From the NCBI GenBank assembly GCA_963781755.1, contig CAWAGZ010000013.1, positions 65,749 through 129,748 on the forward strand: DNA of 64,000 nucleotides, given 5' to 3'. Below the pieces are notes generated by a model. That model did not search any database, was not told where the DNA came from, and saw only the letters and a list, made by a program, of their open reading frames with translations. Shown piece after piece: positions 56,386-64,000 of the stretch; within the stretch, counting starts at the first letter, position 1; the number at the start of each line of letters is the position of its first letter. The translations under genes and the position numbers were made by a program. Source of the DNA: an uncultured Acidobacteriota bacterium (GTDB lineage: Bacteria; Acidobacteriota; Thermoanaerobaculia; Multivoradales; JAGPDF01).

Positions 56386-57939
56386 ATGCAGATCCGGACC
56401 CTGTCGCACCCCTTCGTGCCTGCTTTCGTGGCCGGCTGCCTGCTCCTCGCTCCGTCGCTGAGGGCCGCGGAGCCGACCGGCGACGAGGCGGCGGCGGAGG
56501 CGGCGAAGCCTCCCGTCGCCGAGCAGTCGGTGACCGAGCACCGGGTGACGATCGGCGGCCGGACGATCGCCTACCGGGCGACCGCCGGAACCCTGATCCT
56601 GCGCAACGACGCCGACGAGCCGATCGCCAGCGTCGGCTACTTCGCCTACGTCGCCACCGGCGGGAGCGACCCCGCGGCCCGCCCGATCACGTTCGCCTTC
56701 AACGGCGGACCCGGCTCGTCCTCGATCTGGTTGCACATGGGAGCGCTGGGACCGCGGCGGGTCGTGACGACGGACGCCGGGGCGACGCCGCCGGCTCCGT
56801 ACGGCGTCGTCGACAACGCCGAGAGCCTGCTCGACGTCACCGACCTGGTGATGATCGACCCGGTGGGCACCGGCTTCAGCAAGGCCGAGGGCAAGTCCGC
56901 CGACAAGGACTTCTGGGGGGTCGATCCCGACATCGACGAGGTCACCCGGTTCATCGTCCAGTACGTGACCGACAACGGGCGCTGGAACTCGCCCAAGTTC
57001 CTGCTCGGCGAGAGCTACGGCACGACCCGCGGCGCCGGCATCGTGGACCTCCTCCAGCAGCGCTGGAACCTGGCCCTCAACGGCGTCGTCCTGGTCTCGA
57101 CGGCGATCGACCTCGAGTCGATCTTCGAGTGGACCGGCAACGAACGCCCGTACGCGATGTTCGTCCCGACCTTCGCGGCGACGGCCTGGTATCACCACGC
57201 GCTGCCCGCCGAGCACCCGGACCTCGCGAGCTTCCTCGACGAGGTCCGCGCTTGGGCGCTGGGCCCGTACAACGACGCGCTGATGCAGGGCGACCGCCTG
57301 CCGGCCGACCGGCGCACGGCGATCCTCGACCAGCTCCACGAATACACCGGCTTGTCGAAGGAGTACCTCGACCGCGCCGACCTGCGGGTGACGGAAGGAG
57401 AGTTCACCCACGAGCTGCTGCTCGAGCACCGCCGGACGGTGGGCCGGCTGGACTCCCGCTTCCTCGGGGTCTCGTTCGACCCGATGGCCAAGGAGGCCGA
57501 GTCGGACCCGCAGTCGGACGCGATCTCGTCCGCCTTCACCGCCGCGTTCCAGAGCTATCTCAAGGACGAGCTGAAGTTCGGCGCCGGCCGCACCTACCGG
57601 GTCGGCAACGACGAGGTCTTCAAGCACTGGAAGTTCGAGCACAAGTCGCCCGGGATGCCGTTCCCGATGCCGATGGTCAACACCGGCCCGGACCTCGCCC
57701 ACGCCCTGGGCGCGAATCCGAACCTCAAGGTCCTGGTGCTCCAGGGCACCTTCGACCTGGCGACGCCGTTCCTCGCCACCGAGTACACCTTCTCGCATCT
57801 CGGCATCGAGCCGTCCGAGCGCGACCGCATCGAGATCCGCTACTTCCCCGCCGGCCACATGATGTACATCGAGCCGGGGTCGCTGCCCAACTTCAAGTCC
57901 GCCATCGCCGACTTCATGACGCGCTCGATCCACCCCTGA
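56386..57939 (+). CDS. Secreted S10-family serine carboxypeptidase.
   Basis: Signal peptide; FNGGPGSSS, catalytic GESYG, and the distal Asp/His region (DLATP...FPAGHMMY). Confidence 0.85.
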   Translation: MQIRTLSHPFVPAFVAGCLLLAPSLRAAEPTGDEAAAEAAKPPVAEQSVTEHRVTIGGRTIAYRATAGTLILRNDADEPIASVGYFAYVATGGSDPAARPITFAFNGGPGSSSIWLHMGALGPRRVVTTDAGATPPAPYGVVDNAESLLDVTDLVMIDPVGTGFSKAEGKSADKDFWGVDPDIDEVTRFIVQYVTDNGRWNSPKFLLGESYGTTRGAGIVDLLQQRWNLALNGVVLVSTAIDLESIFEWTGNERPYAMFVPTFAATAWYHHALPAEHPDLASFLDEVRAWALGPYNDALMQGDRLPADRRTAILDQLHEYTGLSKEYLDRADLRVTEGEFTHELLLEHRRTVGRLDSRFLGVSFDPMAKEAESDPQSDAISSAFTAAFQSYLKDELKFGAGRTYRVGNDEVFKHWKFEHKSPGMPFPMPMVNTGPDLAHALGANPNLKVLVLQGTFDLATPFLATEYTFSHLGIEPSERDRIEIRYFPAGHMMYIEPGSLPNFKSAIADFMTRSIHP

Positions 57940-58147
57940 CCGCGGCCCGCGATCAGGAGTCGCAGGCGGCAAGAAGCCGGGCGTCGCAAAGAGGCGAAGC
58001 AGAAGCCGCAAAGCATCCAAAGAAGGGAAGGACGGGCGCGGATCGGCCGCTCGCGCCTGCCGTCCGGCGAGGAGCGGCCCGCACCGCCCCTCCCGTTTCA
58101 GAAGAACGTCTTCGGCTTCTGGCCCTCGTTGCGTCGGACGGGTGATG

Positions 58148-58211
58148 TGGTGGCCAGGGGCGGAGTTGAACCGCCGACACCGCCAGGGGCGGAGTTGAAC
58201 CGCCGACACCG
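58148..58211 (-). repeat. Tandem 29-bp direct repeats of a tRNA 3'-end-like sequence (T-arm GGCGG-TTCAACT-CCGCC + partial acceptor); the lower-coordinate copy ends in the acceptor CCTGGCC-A-CCA. Putative att site(s) of the adjacent integrase element.
   Basis: Plus strand TGGTGG + CCAGGGGCGGAGTTGAACCGCCGACACCG twice (58154..58182 and 58183..58211). No D or anticodon arm follows, so there is no intact tRNA. The 12-mer CCGACACCGTGA recurs at 58396. Confidence 0.6.
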
Positions 58212-58330
58212 TGATTTTCAGTTCGTGCCGGGCGCGTTGCTCAACGTTTCGTGACGTTGACGCGACGGGTAGCTCGATCCCGTCCTATATACCTCTTGCA
58301 ACGTCTATAGCGGTCTGATACCGTGACTGC

Positions 58331-59683
58331 ATGAGCCAGAAATCGCGGAAATCTGTTGAGCAGACGTTGAGCAGGCCGGAGGGCGTTGAGCAGCCCCGAC
58401 ACCGTGAAAGATCTGTCACTGGACGGGGCGCCCGGGCCGTTGAGCAGCCGTTGAGCAGCCGGTGCGACCTCGGCTCGGACAAGGCGATCCGCGCCCGGAT
58501 CCCCGCTCGCGGCCGGGTGTACCTGTGGGACGTGAAGCAGCCCGGCCTCGGCCTGCGGCTCTCCCACGACGGGAAGGGCCGCTTCTTCGCCGTCTACCGC
58601 ATCGGCGGCAAGCAGCGCCGGGCCGACGTCGGCGAGTGGCCCGCCACGCGAGCGACCACGCCGCGCCCGAGGGCCGGCGAACGTCCTGTTCCCGGCGCTC
58701 GCGAAGTCGCCGCCGAGATCCGTCGCCGCGCCCGGATCGAAGGGCACGACCCGCTCGCCGAACGCGCCCGCGCCACCGGGGAGGCGACCGTCGCGCAGCT
58801 ACTCGACCTGTGGCTCGCCGACCACGTAGCGAAGAAACGGCCCGCCACCATCGCGCAGTACAGCCGGATTGCGAACGACCTTCGCAAGCGCTGGGGACGC
58901 CGGCCGGTGGACGAGATCGAGCGCGAGGACGTAGCACGACTCCGGACCGCCCTCGGCGCCACGCCCTACTCAGCGAACCGGGCACTCGCCGTCGTCTCGA
59001 TCCTCTTCGCCTGGGCGATCGAGGCCGGCCTGCGATCGTCCGGACGCGGCAACCCGGCACAAGGGATCAAGCGCTACCAGGAGAAGCAGCGCGAGGCCTA
59101 CCTGTCCGACGCCCAGGTGCGTGACCTCGACGACGCGATCGGCGAGCACGTCGAGGACCCGATCATGGCCGCCGCCCTCCGCTTCGTGCTGTTCTCCGGC
59201 TGGCGCCGCGACGAAGTGCTCAGGCTCAAGTGGGAGAACGTGGACCTCGAGCGCGGCATCGCCACGTTCGAGTCGAAGTCGGGCCCGACCTCGCGCCCGC
59301 TGACTGCGCAGGCCCGAGAGATCCTCGAAGCGCTACCGCGCATCGGCGCCGCCGGCTGGTGCTTCCCGTCGCCGCGCACCGGAGGACCGATTCGCGGGAT
59401 TCATCGGCTGTGGGACGACGTGCGAAAGTCCGTCGGCCTCCCCGATCTCCGACTCCACGACCTCCGCCACAACGTCGGGACCGCATTGACCTCGGAGGGC
59501 GTGCCGCTGCCTCTCGTCGCCCGCGCGCTCGGGCATCGCTCGCTCGCGTCCACGGCGCGCTACGCGCACGCGACCGACGAGGCATCGCAGGCAGCCGTCG
59601 AGAAGCTCTCGGCCCGCTTCGCCAAGGCGCGCGCCGCGAAGCCGGCGAAGGTGCTCCGGCACCGGCCGCGGGGGTCGAAGTGA
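58331..59683 (+). CDS. Tyrosine-type site-specific recombinase/integrase (phage integrase family); the true start is probably downstream, ~58470-58520.
   Basis: N-terminal arm-binding-like segment (GRVYLWDVKQPGLGLRLSHDGKGRFFAVYRIGGKQRR); catalytic R...HDLRHNVGTAL...LGHRSLASTARYAH (R-H-R-Y). Confidence 0.85.
   Translation: MSQKSRKSVEQTLSRPEGVEQPRHRERSVTGRGARAVEQPLSSRCDLGSDKAIRARIPARGRVYLWDVKQPGLGLRLSHDGKGRFFAVYRIGGKQRRADVGEWPATRATTPRPRAGERPVPGAREVAAEIRRRARIEGHDPLAERARATGEATVAQLLDLWLADHVAKKRPATIAQYSRIANDLRKRWGRRPVDEIEREDVARLRTALGATPYSANRALAVVSILFAWAIEAGLRSSGRGNPAQGIKRYQEKQREAYLSDAQVRDLDDAIGEHVEDPIMAAALRFVLFSGWRRDEVLRLKWENVDLERGIATFESKSGPTSRPLTAQAREILEALPRIGAAGWCFPSPRTGGPIRGIHRLWDDVRKSVGLPDLRLHDLRHNVGTALTSEGVPLPLVARALGHRSLASTARYAHATDEASQAAVEKLSARFAKARAAKPAKVLRHRPRGSK
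58355..58458 (+). repeat. Five direct copies of GTTGAGCAG (at 58355, 58366, 58385, 58439, 58450), likely arm-type/iteron sites upstream of the real integrase start.
   Basis: Seen directly; an inverted near-copy TTGCTCAAC at ~58242. They fall in the VEQ-repeat N-terminus of the track ORF, which is unlikely to be coding. Confidence 0.5.
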
Positions 59684-60169
59684 CGAAGCGCAAGACGGCG
59701 AAGCGACCGCGCCAGCGCCAGCCCCGGCGGCGCGAACCGGCGCAGCATCCCGGACCGGTCAACCCGCCGCCCCGGGCGCATGTCGCCCTCGTATTCAAGC
59801 GCAACGGCCTCTCCGGGCGCCTGGAGGACGAGGGCCTCTTCCTCTACCTCGATCAGCGAGCGATCGAGAGCGAGCAGCGCGCCAGACGGCAGGACGACAC
59901 GCAGCAAAGGAGGGAAGGCCCCGAAAAAGGCGAAGGGCATCACGGCGCTCGCCGAGGCCCTCGTCGCGAGGCACCCAGAATTGAACGCGCGCCAGCTCTG
60001 GGAGATCCTCCCCAACGCCGCGAGGAGCCAGATCCTCGACGGCTTCGAGCTGTACCGCGATGGCGAGATCCTCGTACAGCTCGAGGAGAGGACCGGCCGC
60101 GAGCGGGAGATCAAGTTCGAGACGTTCAGGCGCTACGTTACCCGCGCCCGCAAGGGTCCTGCGCAGTAA
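59681..60169 (+). pseudogene. Element ORF with an apparent frameshift at an A5/G3 run (~59905-59935). The 5' part (GTG 59681 frame) and 3' part (track ORF 59780..60169 frame) each look natural only on one side.
   Basis: Frame P is natural to ...LYLDQRAIESEQRARRQDDTQQ and frame Q is natural from ...KGITALAEALVARHPELNARQLWEIL... to the stop. Confidence 0.35.
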
Positions 60170-60225
60170 GTCAGTTTCGCGCGTAGGTGCTCCTCGATCA
60201 TGGTCTGCGGAGGACTTGCAGGCCA

Positions 60226-60449
60226 TGCAGAAAGCGATCGACGAGAACTGCTTCTACACCGCCGCCCAGGTTGAGGAAATGGGCCTGTGGCGCGAGCCGA
60301 CGCTCCGCGCCTATCGGCACGAGACCCGCCGGACCGGCCGCCTGATCGGCCCCCTGTGGGTCGAGATCGGGCGCCGGCGCGTCTATCGCGGCGCTGATCT
60401 GCTCGCCGCGCTCAGCGGCCCCGGCGCACGCGCCGCGGGCGGGCGATGA
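60226..60449 (+). CDS. Excisionase/AlpA-like helix-turn-helix DNA-binding protein.
   Basis: YTAAQVEEMGLWREPTLRAYRHE...GPLWVEIGRRRVYRGADLLAAL, as in MerR-type Xis/AlpA proteins. Confidence 0.5.
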
Positions 60450-60452
60450 TCC

Positions 60453-61442
60453 ATGCCGGCCCACAGAAAGAGAACCGCCGCCCGGGGCAGGGGCGGCGTC
60501 GGTAGAGCTGCGCCAAGATCAAGAGCGCAAGAGCAGTATAGCGCTCCACGACGCACACGAGGTCGCTCGGCCGCCAGCCGGGAGCTGATCGACGCCGCTG
60601 CCCGGATCCTCGAAGAGATCCGGCCGGCCAGCGTGAGAGCCGTCTGCTATCGCCTCTTCGCCGAGGGGGTGATCCCTCGATGCACAAGAACGAGACGGCC
60701 CGCGTCTCGAGGTTGCTGGTCGTCGCCCGCGAGACCGGCATCATCCCCTGGGCGTCGATCGTGGACGAAACCCGCGAGCCGGAGTATCCGGGCACGTGGG
60801 CCGACCCCGAGCGATTCGCCGCCGCAGCTCTTCGATCGTTCCGCCGGGATCGGTGGGAGTCGCAGCCGGTGCGCGTCGAAATCTGGAGCGAGAAAGGGAC
60901 CATCCGAGGCACGCTCGCCCCGGTGCTCCACGAGCTCGGGTTGACGTTCCGAGTGATGCACGGCTTCGGCTCCACCACGGCGGTGCAGGCCGTCGCCGCG
61001 GAGCCTCGAGATCGGCCATTGGTGGCGCTGTACGTGGGCGATTACGACCCCAGCGGCCTCTACATGAGTGAGGTTGATCTACCTGGCCGACTCGAGCGGT
61101 ATCATCGACGACGAGGAGAGCAGCATCGTGGTCCGCCGCATCGCCCTGCTCCGATCCGACCTCGACGGCCTCCCCAGCTTCGACGTGGAGACCAAGCGGG
61201 GCGACGCGCGGTTCGACTGGTACAAGCGGACCACCGGGAGCTCGCGGGCCTGGGAGCTGGACGCCATGCCGCCGCCCGTCCTGCGTGACCGGCTCGAGAC
61301 CGCGATCACCGCCTACATCGATAAGGACGCCTGGCACCGCACCGGCCTGGCCGAGCAGGCGGAGCAGGACTCCCTCAAGCTGGTCATGGGCCGTTGGACC
61401 GCTGGCCTGAAGCAGATTCGGACCAGTCCGAGGTTGCCATGA
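60453..61442 (+). pseudogene. Hypothetical element protein encoded in three consecutive frames (0 -> 2 -> 0); apparent frameshifts at ~60665 (G5 run) and ~61068.
   Basis: Natural sequence SRELIDAAARILEEIRPASVRAVCYRLFAEGVIP (frame 0), then MHKNETARVSRLLVVARETGIIPWASIVDE...VALYVGDYDPSGLYMS (frame 2), then VRLIYLADSSGIIDDEESSIVVRRIALL...GLKQIRTSPRLP (frame 0). Each run ends where the next begins, and the continuations are Arg-rich garbage. Confidence 0.4.
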
Positions 61443-63540
61443 CCGGTTACGGCTCGCGGCTCCTCGCGCGGCACGCTGCCATGCTGGCCGCATCCGGCAT
61501 CCCGCCGGAGCATGCCCGCGAGCGCGGCTATTGCTCGATTGACATCAAGCGGCGTCTCGCCGACTTCAAGGTGGCGCAGACCGGGCGTCGCGTTCCTGGC
61601 CTGCTGATCCCACTCCTGCGCGCCGACGGCTCGACTTGGGGCTATCAGTATCGTCCCGACGATCCCCGCATGACGAAGACGGGCCGGGCGGTGAAGTACG
61701 AGACGCCCCGTGGGCAGCGCAACGGCCTCGACGTGCCTCCCGGCGTCGGCGGCAAACTCGGCGACCCGTCGATCCCGCTGTGGATTACCGGGGAAGCAAG
61801 AAGGCCGACGCAGCGGCCGTGCGCGGCCTGGCCTGCGTCTCTATCCCCGGCGTCTGGTCCTGGCGCGGCACCAACGAAGACGGCGGCCGGACCGCTGTAG
61901 CGGACTGGCACGACGTCGCGCTCGACGGCCGACGCGTTGTCCTGGCCTTCGATTCCGACGTCCAGCGAAAGCGGCCCGTTGCGGCGGCACTCCGACAGCT
62001 GGCTGACTACCTCGCGAGCAAAGGCGCCTCCCCCGAGTATCTGCACCTCCCAGACGACGGAGGAAAGGTCGGGCTCGACGACTTCCTCGCCGCCGGACAC
62101 AGCGTCGAAGAACTGACTAGCCTGATTCAGCCGGCGCCACCCGAGATGAGCGAGAAAAGTGACGAGCGCGCGGTCGAGGCGGAACCGAGCAGCGCATACG
62201 AGCTCGCGCCGCGCGCGTTCTCCCTGGCGCAAGTCGAGCAGGTTGTGGCGCGCTGGTTGCGGGATCCGGATCCTGTTCCCACCCGCGCAGTAATCGCCGC
62301 CTTCGCCGCGAACCGTCACCTCGGCGGTGACCCGGTTTGGCTAATGCTCGTTGGCGGCTCAGGCATCGGCAAAACCGAACGCCTGATCCCGCTCGCCGGC
62401 CTGCCACACGTCGTCGTTGCGTCGTCGATCTCTGGCCCCGCCGGCCTGCTGAGCGGATCGAAGCAGAGCGAGCGCAACGCGGCCTCAACCGGCGGCCTGC
62501 TTCGCCGGATCGGCCCCGCCGGGGTTCGTGCTCAAGGACTTCACCTCTGTGCTCGACATGCATCGCGATGCCCGCGCGCAAGTCCTCGCGGCGCTGCGCG
62601 AGGTCTATGACGGCCGGTGGGACCGAGACGTGGAAAGCGACGGCGGCCGCGTCTTGACGTGGCAAGGGCACCTCGGCCTGCTCGCTGGATGCACCACCGC
62701 GATCGACTCGGCCCACGCGGTCATCGCCACCATGGGAACCCGCTTCCTGCTCGTGCGCCTCACCGGCTCCGACACCGACGACTTGACGGCCTCGGCCTTG
62801 GATCACGTCGGCCAAGAGACGCAGATGCGCCAGGAGATCGCCGACGCCTTTCGCGGCCTCCTCGATCACCTGCCGGGCCGGCCGCGCGACCTGGGCCCCA
62901 TCCGTGCGCCGCTGATCGCCTTGGCCGGATTCGTTGCGACCGCTCGCTCACCTGTCGATAGGGACTACCAGGGCGAGATTCGCTCGTTATCGACCGGGAG
63001 GCGCCCACGCGGCTCGTGAAGATGCTGGGCCAGCTCTGGCGCGCTGCCGGCCTGCTCGGCCTCGACCCGCGCGGAGCGTGCGGAGATGGTGCGGCGGGCC
63101 GGCATGGACTCGATCCCGAAGCTGCGGCGGGCGATCCTCGATCACCTGGCAGGCACCCTGAGACCGTCCACGACCAGCAGTGTCGCCGTCGCCGTCGAGC
63201 ACCCGTCGCGCACCACCCGCCGAGGCCTGGAAGATCTCGCGGCGCACGGCATGGTCACGCGCGATGCCGGCGGCCAAGGGGCGGCCGACGCCTGGAGTCT
63301 GTCCACCCGAGCGGCCGGTTGGCTGGCCCGGGCAACCTTGCCAGAAACGTCGGACACCATGCACGATGCGCCTTCGCCTTTCTACACTCCTAATAACTCT
63401 TCACACGTCATCGACGACATTACTGGCAAGGTCGGTGAGGCGGAGGCTAAAGCGGTGCCCGGCTGCCCCGCTTGTCAGCGACTGGCCGAAGAAGTCCCGG
63501 GGGCGGTCTGCTCGCGGCACTTCAGGGGTGCGCGATGAGG
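61436..63540 (+). pseudogene. Phage/plasmid primase-helicase-like replication protein (Toprim-like N-terminal region, P-loop NTPase, C-terminal winged-helix), disrupted by at least 4 frameshifts (~61800, ~62520, ~62985, ~63060).
   Basis: PLWITGE|GSKKADAAAVRGLACVSIPGVWSW across a GGGG run (Toprim-like ITEG.KKA motif); Walker A LMLVGGSGIGKTERL; then ...IGPAG|FVLKDFTSVLDMHRDARAQVL across another CCGGGG run; the C-terminal wHTH-like SIPKLRRAILDHLAGTL. Confidence 0.5.
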
Positions 63541-63655
63541 TCGGGCTCGTGGCCGGGCCCTGGGTTCGACGCACGGCCGGAGCAGCCGCGAGCGGCGTCC
63601 CGTGACGGAGAATCACGGTGTCGCAGCCTTGAAAGCCTGCTACCATCGGACTTAA

Positions 63656-64000
63656 TGGCCACTGACTCCGAAGTGCTCAACGCCTGCTCAACCGCGAACC
63701 CCAACCTCCGGGCCCCGTCCGGTGATCCTCCGGCCTCTCGGCTCGAGCCTGTGGCGACGCAGGAACCGGCCGAGGCGGCGTCGGCGGCGGTGGCAGAGAT
63801 CGCCCAGCGTCCGAACCAAGATCCGGCGACTGGCAGGTTCCTGCCCGGCAATGAGTCGGCGCTTCGTCACGGGTTGCGGCGTCGGCCGGAGTCGGCGCTG
63901 TGGGAATTGCTCGGTCCAGCTCGGGAGGAGCTGGCGGCCCGGGTGCGCGAGGACGTGCTGCCGGGCACAGATGCCGCGGCGACGCTGGAGGGGCTCGCGG
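63656..64000 (+). CDS. Partial ORF of unknown function (runs off the window end).
   Basis: MATDSEVLNACSTANPNLRAPS...ATGRFLPGNESALRHGLRRRPESALWELLGPAREELAARVRE; natural composition, no motif recognised. Confidence 0.3.

What the first reader, a model, noticed from the sequence alone, without database searches (positions are those of the whole stretch)
58148..58530. tRNA-3'-end-like tandem repeats (T-arm + acceptor + CCA) form the att boundary of an integrase element, but no tRNA body is present
Minus-strand reading of 58148..58182 gives CGGTGTC-GGCGG-TTCAACT-CCGCC-CCTGGCC-A-CCA, a canonical tRNA T-arm, 7-nt acceptor strand, discriminator and CCA. A second 29-bp copy lacking the CCA end follows in tandem at 58183..58211, and a 12-mer from its end (CCGACACCGTGA) recurs at 58396. 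No D-arm or anticodon arm exists on either strand, so this is a tRNA 3' fragment of the kind left as attR by tRNA-targeting integrases. The intact tRNA would then sit on the minus strand beyond the far (right) end of the element, outside the window. Tandem duplication of the fragment is unusual and may reflect two integration events or an excision footprint.
Basis: partly seen in the sequence, partly recalled or inferred. Interest (0 to 1): 0.7.

Follow-up and report, generated by a model that had tools for sequence, protein, structure and literature searches.

The report
Displaced tRNA-Phe end marking island boundary
This is the leftover 3' piece of a phenylalanine tRNA gene, split off when a small phage-like island inserted into that gene. 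It is a very common, well-understood arrangement; the only oddity is a perfect 29-base duplication inside the leftover piece.

Summary
Window 58153-58181 and 58182-58210 are a perfect 29-bp tandem duplication. On the minus strand, 58221-58148 reads as the 3' part of tRNA-Phe(GAA): anticodon loop, 3' anticodon stem, variable loop, T-arm, acceptor strand, A, CCA.

A P4-type tyrosine integrase (58451-59683) lies 230 bp away. Five GTTGAGCAG repeats sit between it and the fragment.

A 96%-identical related genome carries the same integrase at the same site. There the fragment is single-copy (45 nt), and an intact tRNA-Phe whose 3' 45 nt are identical lies 13,329 bp further on, in the same orientation. 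GTTGAGCAG copies sit beside that tRNA too. The two closest integrase relatives (46-48% identity) show the same integrase-plus-fragment layout.

This is therefore an ordinary attR of a roughly 13-kb phage-related island in tRNA-Phe, of the anticodon-loop crossover class. The intact tRNA should lie beyond the window's right end.

The duplication is specific to this genome. Its ends do not coincide with the crossover site and no island DNA lies between the copies, so slippage (or an assembly error) fits better than two integrations or an excision footprint. Interest is low.

The parts
58148..58221 (-). Displaced native 3' part of tRNA-Phe(GAA), the attR core and B' side. It runs from the anticodon loop CTGAAAA (58221-58215) through TCACG, the variable loop, T-arm and acceptor 3' strand to discriminator A and CCA (58150-58148). 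It carries an internal perfect 29-nt duplication.
   Evidence: It is identical to the 3' 45 nt of the intact tRNA-Phe in the related genome. It also matches 71 intact tRNA-Phe genes in soil metagenome contigs.
58153..58210 (.). Perfect 29-bp tandem duplication (58153-58181 and 58182-58210), equal to tRNA positions 43-71, with 1 nt of junction microhomology. It is absent from the related genome.
   Evidence: The related genome has a single copy at L001 9729-9773. The duplication junction is absent from all 200+ fetched loci.
58222..58450 (.). Island-side arm of attR (P arm) between the core and the integrase start. Besides the five direct GTTGAGCAG copies listed separately, it holds one inverted near-copy, TTGCTCAAC, at 58237-58245.
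   Evidence: It is conserved at about 98% in the related genome.
58355..58458 (+). Five exact GTTGAGCAG copies (58355, 58366, 58385, 58439, 58450), two pairs with 11-bp spacing. Proposed arm-type binding sites of the integrase.
   Evidence: Three further copies lie next to the intact tRNA at the other island end in the related genome (L120 8230-8270). In the 46-48% identical relatives, a pair of direct repeats with a different sequence but the same 11-bp spacing lies in the last 35 bp before the integrase start, as the last window pair does.
58396..58424 (-). Core-like site inside the arm: AGTGA-CAGATCTT-TCACGGTGTCGG on the minus strand. Function is unknown.
   Evidence: CGGTGTCGGC also recurs next to GTTGAGCAG in the other arm in the related genome.
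58316..58328 (+). Box TGATACCGTGACT, conserved upstream of the integrase in the two closest related elements. Role unknown; possibly a promoter or regulatory site.
   Evidence: Alignment A1.
58451..59683 (+). P4-type tyrosine integrase, 410 aa, TTG start, transcribed away from the att site into the island.
   Evidence: Pfam hits PF00589 (72 bits), PF13356 and PF22022. An exact 410-aa database entry, P0001, exists. HxLRH and RYAH motifs are present.
59684..64000 (+). Proximal part of the island, which continues beyond the window. Contents: small ORFs; a phrog_6247 homologue split between two frames (60680-61288 / 61068-61442); primase-like and DUF3854 pieces (61394-63019, three frames); an HTH protein (63086-63538); and a GTGCTCAAC/CTGCTCAAC pair at 63673-63692.
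   Evidence: 63570-64000 is 91% identical to the related island.
56386..57939 (+). Chromosomal flank: a peptidase S10 family gene, syntenic with the related genome. It marks the outside of the island.

Best explanation
Window 58148-58221 (minus strand) is the native 3' part of the host's tRNA-Phe(GAA) gene. It was displaced when a phage-related island of about 13 kb integrated by site-specific recombination in the anticodon loop.

Mechanism (established for this class, inferred here). The island's attP carries its own copy of tRNA positions about 31-76. The P4-type tyrosine integrase binds repeated arm sites with its N-terminal domain; GTTGAGCAG is the proposed site. It binds the anticodon-stem half-sites with its core-binding domain and exchanges strands across the 7-nt anticodon loop. 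The result is an intact tRNA-Phe at the far end (attL), whose 3' part is supplied by the island. The original 3' part is left next to the integrase (attR).

In the window only attR and the first 5.8 kb of the island are present. By extrapolation from the related genome, the intact tRNA should lie roughly 8 kb beyond coordinate 64000 on the minus strand.

The perfect 29-bp duplication (tRNA positions 43-71) is a later, genome-specific change in this unselected leftover. Replication slippage or unequal exchange around the T-arm hairpin is the most likely cause. It leaves the crossover region and the first 39 nt after it unchanged.

Shown: the fragment's identity, the integrase, the repeats, and both island ends in a near-identical genome. 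Inferred: the strand-exchange position, integrase binding to the repeats, the origin of the duplication, and the far end in this genome.
For: 1. The fragment reads as the tRNA-Phe 3' part from the anticodon loop to CCA.
2. The 35-mer without CCA occurs 121 times on 118 soil metagenome contigs. Of these, 71 are intact tRNA-Phe(GAA) genes and 44 are fragments whose identity to the tRNA starts within a few bases of the anticodon loop; the other 6 are cut by a contig end.
3. Related genome (ENA ERZ25039533 contig_18705), 96% identical in the flanking chromosome:
- the same integrase at 98% DNA identity;
- a single-copy 45-nt fragment;
- an intact 76-nt tRNA-Phe with an identical 3' part (42 nt checked by pattern search, the full 45 nt incl. 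CCA by exact match), in the same orientation, 13,329 bp away;
- housekeeping genes (purH, lolA, kdsB, pyrG families) on its other side.
4. The integrase has arm-binding, central and catalytic domains.
5. GTTGAGCAG occurs 5 times in 104 bp upstream of the integrase. It occurs 3 times next to the intact tRNA in the related genome.
6. The two closest integrases (46-48% identity) each sit about 170-190 bp from a tRNA-Phe 3' fragment of their own host's sequence, on the opposite strand. Each has its own pair of direct repeats spaced 11 bp apart just upstream of the integrase.
7. The island encodes a primase/helicase and a terminase-large-subunit-like protein.
8. The Islander survey found 3760 of 3919 mapped islands with a 3' tDNA fragment, and 2083 with an anticodon-centred site (PMC4383910).
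Against: - The far end (the intact tRNA) was not seen in the window's own genome. The window's island differs from the related one over 59671-63570, so its size and distal end are extrapolated.
- No empty site (uninterrupted attB) was recovered. The nearest reference genomes are only 63-65% identical in the flanking peptidase and lack a tRNA-Phe next to it, so local synteny could not be used.
- The GTTGAGCAG motif also occurs as a pair inside the island (63673-63692). It could therefore be an operator for another island protein rather than, or as well as, an integrase arm site.
- Whether the duplication is real or an assembly error cannot be decided from the sequence.
Confidence: 0.9

Rival explanations
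1. The tandem copies record integrase activity itself: two successive integrations into the same tRNA, or a footprint of an excision.
For: Tandem arrays of islands at one tRNA gene do occur: 125 of 3919 in Islander (PMC4383910). Some soil metagenome contigs carry one tRNA-Phe plus more than one fragment (L029, L050, L080). The duplicated unit starts at the CGGTGTCGG motif, which also recurs in both arms.
Against: - In real arrays each fragment is preceded by its own element DNA. The fragments in L080 are about 1.2 kb apart, and those in L048, L070 and L085 lie 2.5-6 kb from the tRNA. Here the copies abut with nothing between them.
- The second copy lacks the anticodon-loop crossover sequence that a second integration would duplicate.
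- The duplication ends (positions 43 and 71) are not at the crossover site.
- The related genome with the same island has one copy.
- Tyrosine recombinases leave no footprint (established knowledge).
Confidence: 0.04
2. The 29-bp duplication is an assembly or sequencing artefact, and the real genome has the single-copy 45-nt fragment seen in the related genome.
For: - The source is an uncultured-organism contig (132 kb).
- Several island genes in the window are split between reading frames.
- The related assembly has a frameshifted integrase C-terminus. This fits indel-prone assemblies.
- The duplication is perfect.
Against: Typical long-read errors are 1-2 nt homopolymer indels, not exact 29-nt duplications. 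Short-read assemblers rarely create short perfect tandem duplications. Nothing in the sequence itself indicates an error.
Confidence: 0.2
3. The stretch is attP of a free (non-integrated) plasmid or phage, or a dispersed tRNA-derived repeat, rather than a chromosomal island boundary.
For: attP sites of tRNA-targeting elements also carry a tRNA 3' fragment next to the integrase (established knowledge).
Against: - The left flank (thiolase, M48 peptidase, S10 peptidase) is chromosomal. It is collinear over 9.8 kb with a 3.87-Mb contig in which the other island end is an intact tRNA followed by housekeeping genes.
- Only two adjacent copies of the repeat exist in 64 kb.
- Neither the 35-mer nor a close integrase relative is found in the viral contig collection.
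Confidence: 0.01

Closest known systems
Genomic islands and prophages integrated in tRNA genes with an anticodon-loop crossover (site class 'A' of Williams 2002, NAR 30:866, as used in Islander, PMC4383910)
   Same: Tyrosine integrase at one end. An intact tRNA gene at one boundary and a displaced 3' fragment in the same orientation at the other. [quoted passage not shown]
   Different: Nothing essential. The integrase lies next to the displaced fragment rather than next to the intact tRNA. I recall that as the less usual placement, but this was not checked in a paper. The displaced fragment carries a 29-bp internal duplication.
P4-type integrase islands in phe-tRNA genes, e.g. the Mesorhizobium loti symbiosis island (Sullivan & Ronson 1998, cited in PMC4383910) and, from my own knowledge, E. 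coli pheV/pheU islands
   Same: Same integrase domain architecture (arm-binding PF13356 plus catalytic PF00589) and the same target isoacceptor, tRNA-Phe.
   Different: As I recall, those elements duplicate only a short 3'-terminal segment (17 bp for the M. loti island). Here the repeat is 45-46 nt starting at the anticodon loop. Integrase identity to proteobacterial relatives is only about 30-34%. The island is small and phage-satellite-like (primase/helicase, terminase-like gene) rather than a 500-kb conjugative element.
'Damaged' displaced tDNA fragments (Williams 2003, J Bacteriol 185:1059, as described in PMC4383910)
   Same: The displaced fragment differs from the functional gene's 3' end, so excision would not restore the original gene.
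   Different: The reported damage is a small deletion 3 bp upstream of the discriminator, recurring in certain islands. Here it is a 29-bp tandem duplication seen in one genome only.

Membership tests
tRNA-gene integrative island (Islander definition: tDNA plus cognate displaced fragment plus integrase) | A tyrosine integrase gene inside the candidate island, near an att end | tested here: met
   PF00589 at 72 bits, plus PF13356 and PF22022. The gene is 58451-59683, 230 bp from the fragment.
tRNA-gene integrative island (Islander definition: tDNA plus cognate displaced fragment plus integrase) | The fragment is an end fragment of a real tRNA gene, reaching the gene's 3' end | tested here: met
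   It is identical to positions 31/32-76 of the intact tRNA-Phe in the related genome and of 71 metagenomic tRNA-Phe genes.
tRNA-gene integrative island (Islander definition: tDNA plus cognate displaced fragment plus integrase) | An intact cognate tRNA gene in the same replicon, in the same orientation, with the 3' fragment downstream of it | tested here: inconclusive
   Met in the 96%-identical related genome, where the two are 13,329 bp apart on the same strand. Not testable in the window's own genome: the far end is outside the window and the contig is not retrievable.
tRNA-gene integrative island (Islander definition: tDNA plus cognate displaced fragment plus integrase) | An uninterrupted target (attB) in related genomes lacking the island | tested here: inconclusive
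   The closest reference genomes are only 63-65% identical in the flanking peptidase and have no tRNA-Phe next to it.
tRNA-gene integrative island (Islander definition: tDNA plus cognate displaced fragment plus integrase) | Excision to a circular form with attP and a restored attB | not testable with these tools
   Needs PCR or read-level data.
Anticodon-loop (class A) att site | Identity between fragment and tRNA begins at the anticodon loop, flanked by the symmetric anticodon-stem sequences | tested here: met
   Identity ends at 58222 (A31). The island side reads GCACGAA|CTGAAAA|TCACG against the tRNA's GCACGTGA|CTGAAAA|TCACG. L121 and L122 break at the same point.
Heterobivalent (lambda/P4-type) integrase system with arm-type sites | An N-terminal arm-binding domain, and repeated arm-type sites on both sides of the core in attP | tested here: met
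   - PF13356 scores 26.1 bits here (cut-off 27) and is listed in the precomputed hits for P0001.
- GTTGAGCAG occurs 5 times, plus 1 inverted near-copy, in the attR arm.
- It occurs 3 times in the attL arm of the related genome.
- Binding itself was not tested.
Functional tRNA gene | A complete cloverleaf recognised by tRNA finders | tested here: not met
   ARAGORN finds 0 genes in the window. There is no Rfam tRNA match at E<=10. The 5' 30 nt of the tRNA are absent.
Tandem island array (two integrations at one tRNA) | Each fragment copy is separated by element DNA with its own integrase | tested here: not met
   The copies abut directly, 58181/58182.

The most novel reading that the evidence does not exclude
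The perfect 29-bp duplication is real and turns attR into a poisoned site. The crossover lies in the anticodon loop, so excision would join the tRNA's 5' part to the duplicated 3' part. That would rebuild a 105-nt tRNA-Phe gene carrying either an extra hairpin or, if the first T-arm copy is used, a G at position 72 and no encoded CCA. If this is the cell's only tRNA-Phe gene, losing the island would be costly. A neutral mutation in the leftover fragment would then lock a mobile element into the chromosome.
Probability: 0.2. Interest if true: 0.35.

Novelty: new member of a known kind. Interest (0 to 1): 0.15.

Why it matters
It matters mainly for annotation. The feature fixes one boundary of a small phage-related island. 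It identifies the island's target as tRNA-Phe(GAA), with an anticodon-loop crossover. It also gives a candidate arm-site motif for a poorly sampled integrase clade from uncultured soil bacteria.

Of the 115 metagenomic occurrences of this tRNA-Phe 3' half that could be classified (121 in all, 6 cut by contig ends), 44 are displaced fragments. This tRNA gene is therefore a busy integration site in that community.

The duplication is a small curiosity. It would matter only if it prevents harmless excision.

Tried and rejected
- Fetching the window's own contig. Three exact-protein look-ups (the 450-aa integrase ORF, P0001, and the S10 peptidase) found nothing on record.
- Exact 35-mer including CCA against the reference genome collection: 0 hits. 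Neither this species nor an identical tRNA-Phe with encoded CCA is among the species representatives.
- Empty-site test with the flanking S10 peptidase in the reference genomes. The relatives are at most 65% identical (Acidobacteriota/Thermoanaerobaculia and Gemmatimonadales MAGs), and none of the best 25 has a tRNA-Phe next to the gene. The test was uninformative.
- Viral contig collection: no close integrase relative and no 35-mer.
- BLAST of the 118 metagenome loci against the window and the related genome: only the tRNA part matches, and no flanks are shared.
- Rfam at a permissive threshold: only chance-level hits, the best at the site being a Tymovirus tRNA-like element at 15 bits, E=1.4.
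- Promoter and terminator scan of 57900-58520: nothing.
- Pfam search for an excisionase among the small ORFs after the integrase: no hit.
- P0004 context: the contig is too short to show an att site.
It was solved by first retrieving the protein through the homology search.

Full report
**Observation**

The stretch is as described. On the plus strand, 58148-58221 reads tggtggccaggggcggagttgaaccgccgacaccGCCAGGGGCGGAGTTGAACCGCCGACACCgtgattttcag. On the minus strand it reads CTGAAAA-TCACG-GTGTC-GGCGG-TTCAACT-CCGCC-CCTGG | C-GGTGTC-GGCGG-TTCAACT-CCGCC-CCTGGCC-A-CCA.

The two 29-bp units (58153-58181 and 58182-58210) are identical. TRF scores them 118 at 100% matches, and they are the only perfect tandem repeat in the window. 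A 29-mer search allowing three mismatches finds no other copy in 64 kb. ARAGORN finds no tRNA gene in the window. Rfam gives nothing tRNA-like above chance.

That names the piece as tRNA-Phe.

**Identity of the fragment**

I searched the 35-mer TCACGGTGTCGGCGGTTCAACTCCGCCCCTGGCCA in the metagenome collection. It returned 118 contigs, mostly from soil. ARAGORN and a script classified the 121 occurrences as follows:
- 71 are intact tRNA-Phe(GAA) genes: GGCCAGGTAGCTCAGTTGGTAGAGCACGTGACTGAAAATCACGG... (two of them with C for the T in CAGTTGG);
- 44 are fragments whose identity to the tRNA stops within a few bases of the anticodon loop;
- 6 are cut by a contig end.

Several contigs carry a tRNA-Phe plus a fragment 2.5-6 kb downstream (L048, L070, L085). 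The sequence is therefore a genuine tRNA-Phe 3' half, and this tRNA is a frequent integration target.

**Surroundings**

To the left are chromosomal genes: thiolase, M48 peptidase and S10 peptidase.

To the right, starting at a TTG at 58451, is a 410-aa tyrosine integrase with arm-binding, central and catalytic domains. An identical 410-aa protein, P0001, is in the protein collection.

Between fragment and integrase lie five exact GTTGAGCAG copies, two pairs of them spaced 11 bp apart, and one inverted near-copy.

After the integrase come small ORFs, a phrog_6247 homologue, primase-like and DUF3854 pieces, and an HTH protein. Several of these are split between reading frames.

**The other end**

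The window's own contig could not be fetched. A cluster mate of the integrase, P0121, led to a 3.87-Mb metagenome-assembled contig, locus L001. Its features:
- It is 96% identical to the window over 9.8 kb of chromosome and 98% identical over the integrase region.
- The fragment is single-copy there: tggtggccaggggcggagttgaaccgccgacaccgtgattttcag.
- Walking 10 kb further reached an intact 76-nt tRNA-Phe(GAA) with encoded CCA (L120 8109-8184). A pattern search matched 42 nt of its 3' part to the fragment, and an exact-match search of the merged sequence found the whole 45-nt fragment at both positions.
- The tRNA has the same orientation as the fragment and lies 13,329 bp from it (coordinates; merged sequence checked).
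- Beyond the tRNA lie housekeeping genes.
- Immediately inside the tRNA's 3' end are GTTGAGCAG, CTGCTCAAC and GCTCAAC, again with 11-bp spacing.
- The island encodes an HTH protein, a primase/helicase and a terminase-large-subunit-like protein.

The window's island shares the integrase and a distal block (63570-64000, 91% identity). It differs between 59671 and 63570. The two islands are therefore mosaic relatives at the same site.

**Comparators**

The two closest integrases, P0002 (48% identity) and P0003 (46%), each lie about 170-190 bp from a tRNA-Phe 3' fragment on the opposite strand. The fragment has their own host's sequence, and its identity to the tRNA breaks at the anticodon loop. 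Each has its own pair of 8-11-nt direct repeats, 11 bp apart, just upstream of the integrase. This is what co-evolving arm-type sites should look like.

A 36%-identical relative sits next to what reads as a tRNA-Pro-like fragment (my reading, not confirmed by a tool).

The layout is thus a property of the clade, and the closest members target tRNA-Phe.

**Mechanism**

The pattern matches the textbook model summarised in the Islander paper. Integration splits the tRNA gene, the island restores it, and the regenerated gene and its displaced fragment mark the island ends. In that survey, 3760 of 3919 islands have a 3' fragment and 2083 have an anticodon-centred site (PMC4383910).

Here the fragment next to the integrase is attR. 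The intact gene would be attL, about 8 kb beyond the window if the distal island part resembles the related one.

Binding of the integrase to GTTGAGCAG is inferred. A pair of the motif inside the island (63673-63692) leaves room for a regulatory role or for another binding protein. However, the integrase is the one nearby protein conserved in both islands.

**The duplication**

The duplication covers tRNA positions 43-71, with one base of junction microhomology. It is absent from the related genome and from every fetched locus. No element DNA lies between the copies. Its ends are far from the crossover region. Integrase-mediated origins (two integrations, or a footprint) are therefore unlikely.

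Slippage in a sequence no longer under selection is the simplest cause. An assembly error cannot be excluded.

If the duplication is real, excision would rebuild a 105-nt tRNA-Phe gene. ARAGORN still calls a tRNA in that construct using the first T-arm copy. The minimum-energy fold is a cloverleaf with an extra arm. Loss of function is therefore plausible but not certain.

**Verdict**

This is an ordinary attR of a tRNA-Phe-targeting island, and a new member of a very well-known kind. It carries one minor, possibly artefactual, oddity. Interest is low.

Noticed in passing
window 58355-58458, 58237-58245 and 63673-63692; L120 8230-8270: GTTGAGCAG occurs five times just upstream of the integrase, with pairs 11 bp apart. 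It recurs next to the intact tRNA at the other island end in the related genome. It also occurs as an inverted pair inside the island, in both genomes. These are candidate arm-type or regulatory sites.
   Followed up: partly
window 58396-58424 (minus strand): A core-like site lies inside the arm, between the GTTGAGCAG clusters: AGTGA-N8-TCACGGTGTCGG. It mimics the anticodon-stem inverted repeat of the real crossover site, with an 8-nt rather than 7-nt spacer. CGGTGTCGGC also sits beside GTTGAGCAG in the other arm (L120 8240-8249). Unexplained.
   Followed up: partly
window 58316-58328; L121 ~136-148; L122 ~852-864: The box TGATACCGTGACT (one change in each relative) is conserved upstream of the integrase in elements whose integrases are only 46-48% identical, while the surrounding DNA is not.
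   Followed up: no
window 60680-61442 and 61394-63019: Island genes appear broken. A phrog_6247 homologue is split between two frames near 61060-61290. A primase-like/DUF3854 region runs through three frames. These are either pseudogenes or indel errors in the assembly.
   Followed up: partly
L001 10001-11248 (P0121): The related genome's integrase is frameshifted near its C-terminus and loses the RYAH tyrosine region that is present in the window's copy.
   Followed up: no
L002-L119 (metagenome contigs): Of 121 occurrences of this tRNA-Phe 3' half in metagenome contigs, mostly from soil, 44 are displaced fragments, with at least half a dozen different island-side junction sequences. None of the 121 is followed by CCA, whereas the window's lineage encodes CCA.
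   Followed up: partly
L204 1-210: A 36%-identical integrase with the same layout lies next to what reads as a tRNA-Pro(GGG)-like 3' fragment cut by the contig end. This suggests target switching within the wider clade.
   Followed up: no
L122 718-736 and 810-828: In the P0003 element, the arm holds a 19-nt inverted, 79%-matching copy of the fragment's variable-loop/T-stem sequence. This is another case of tRNA-like sequence repeated inside an arm.
   Followed up: no
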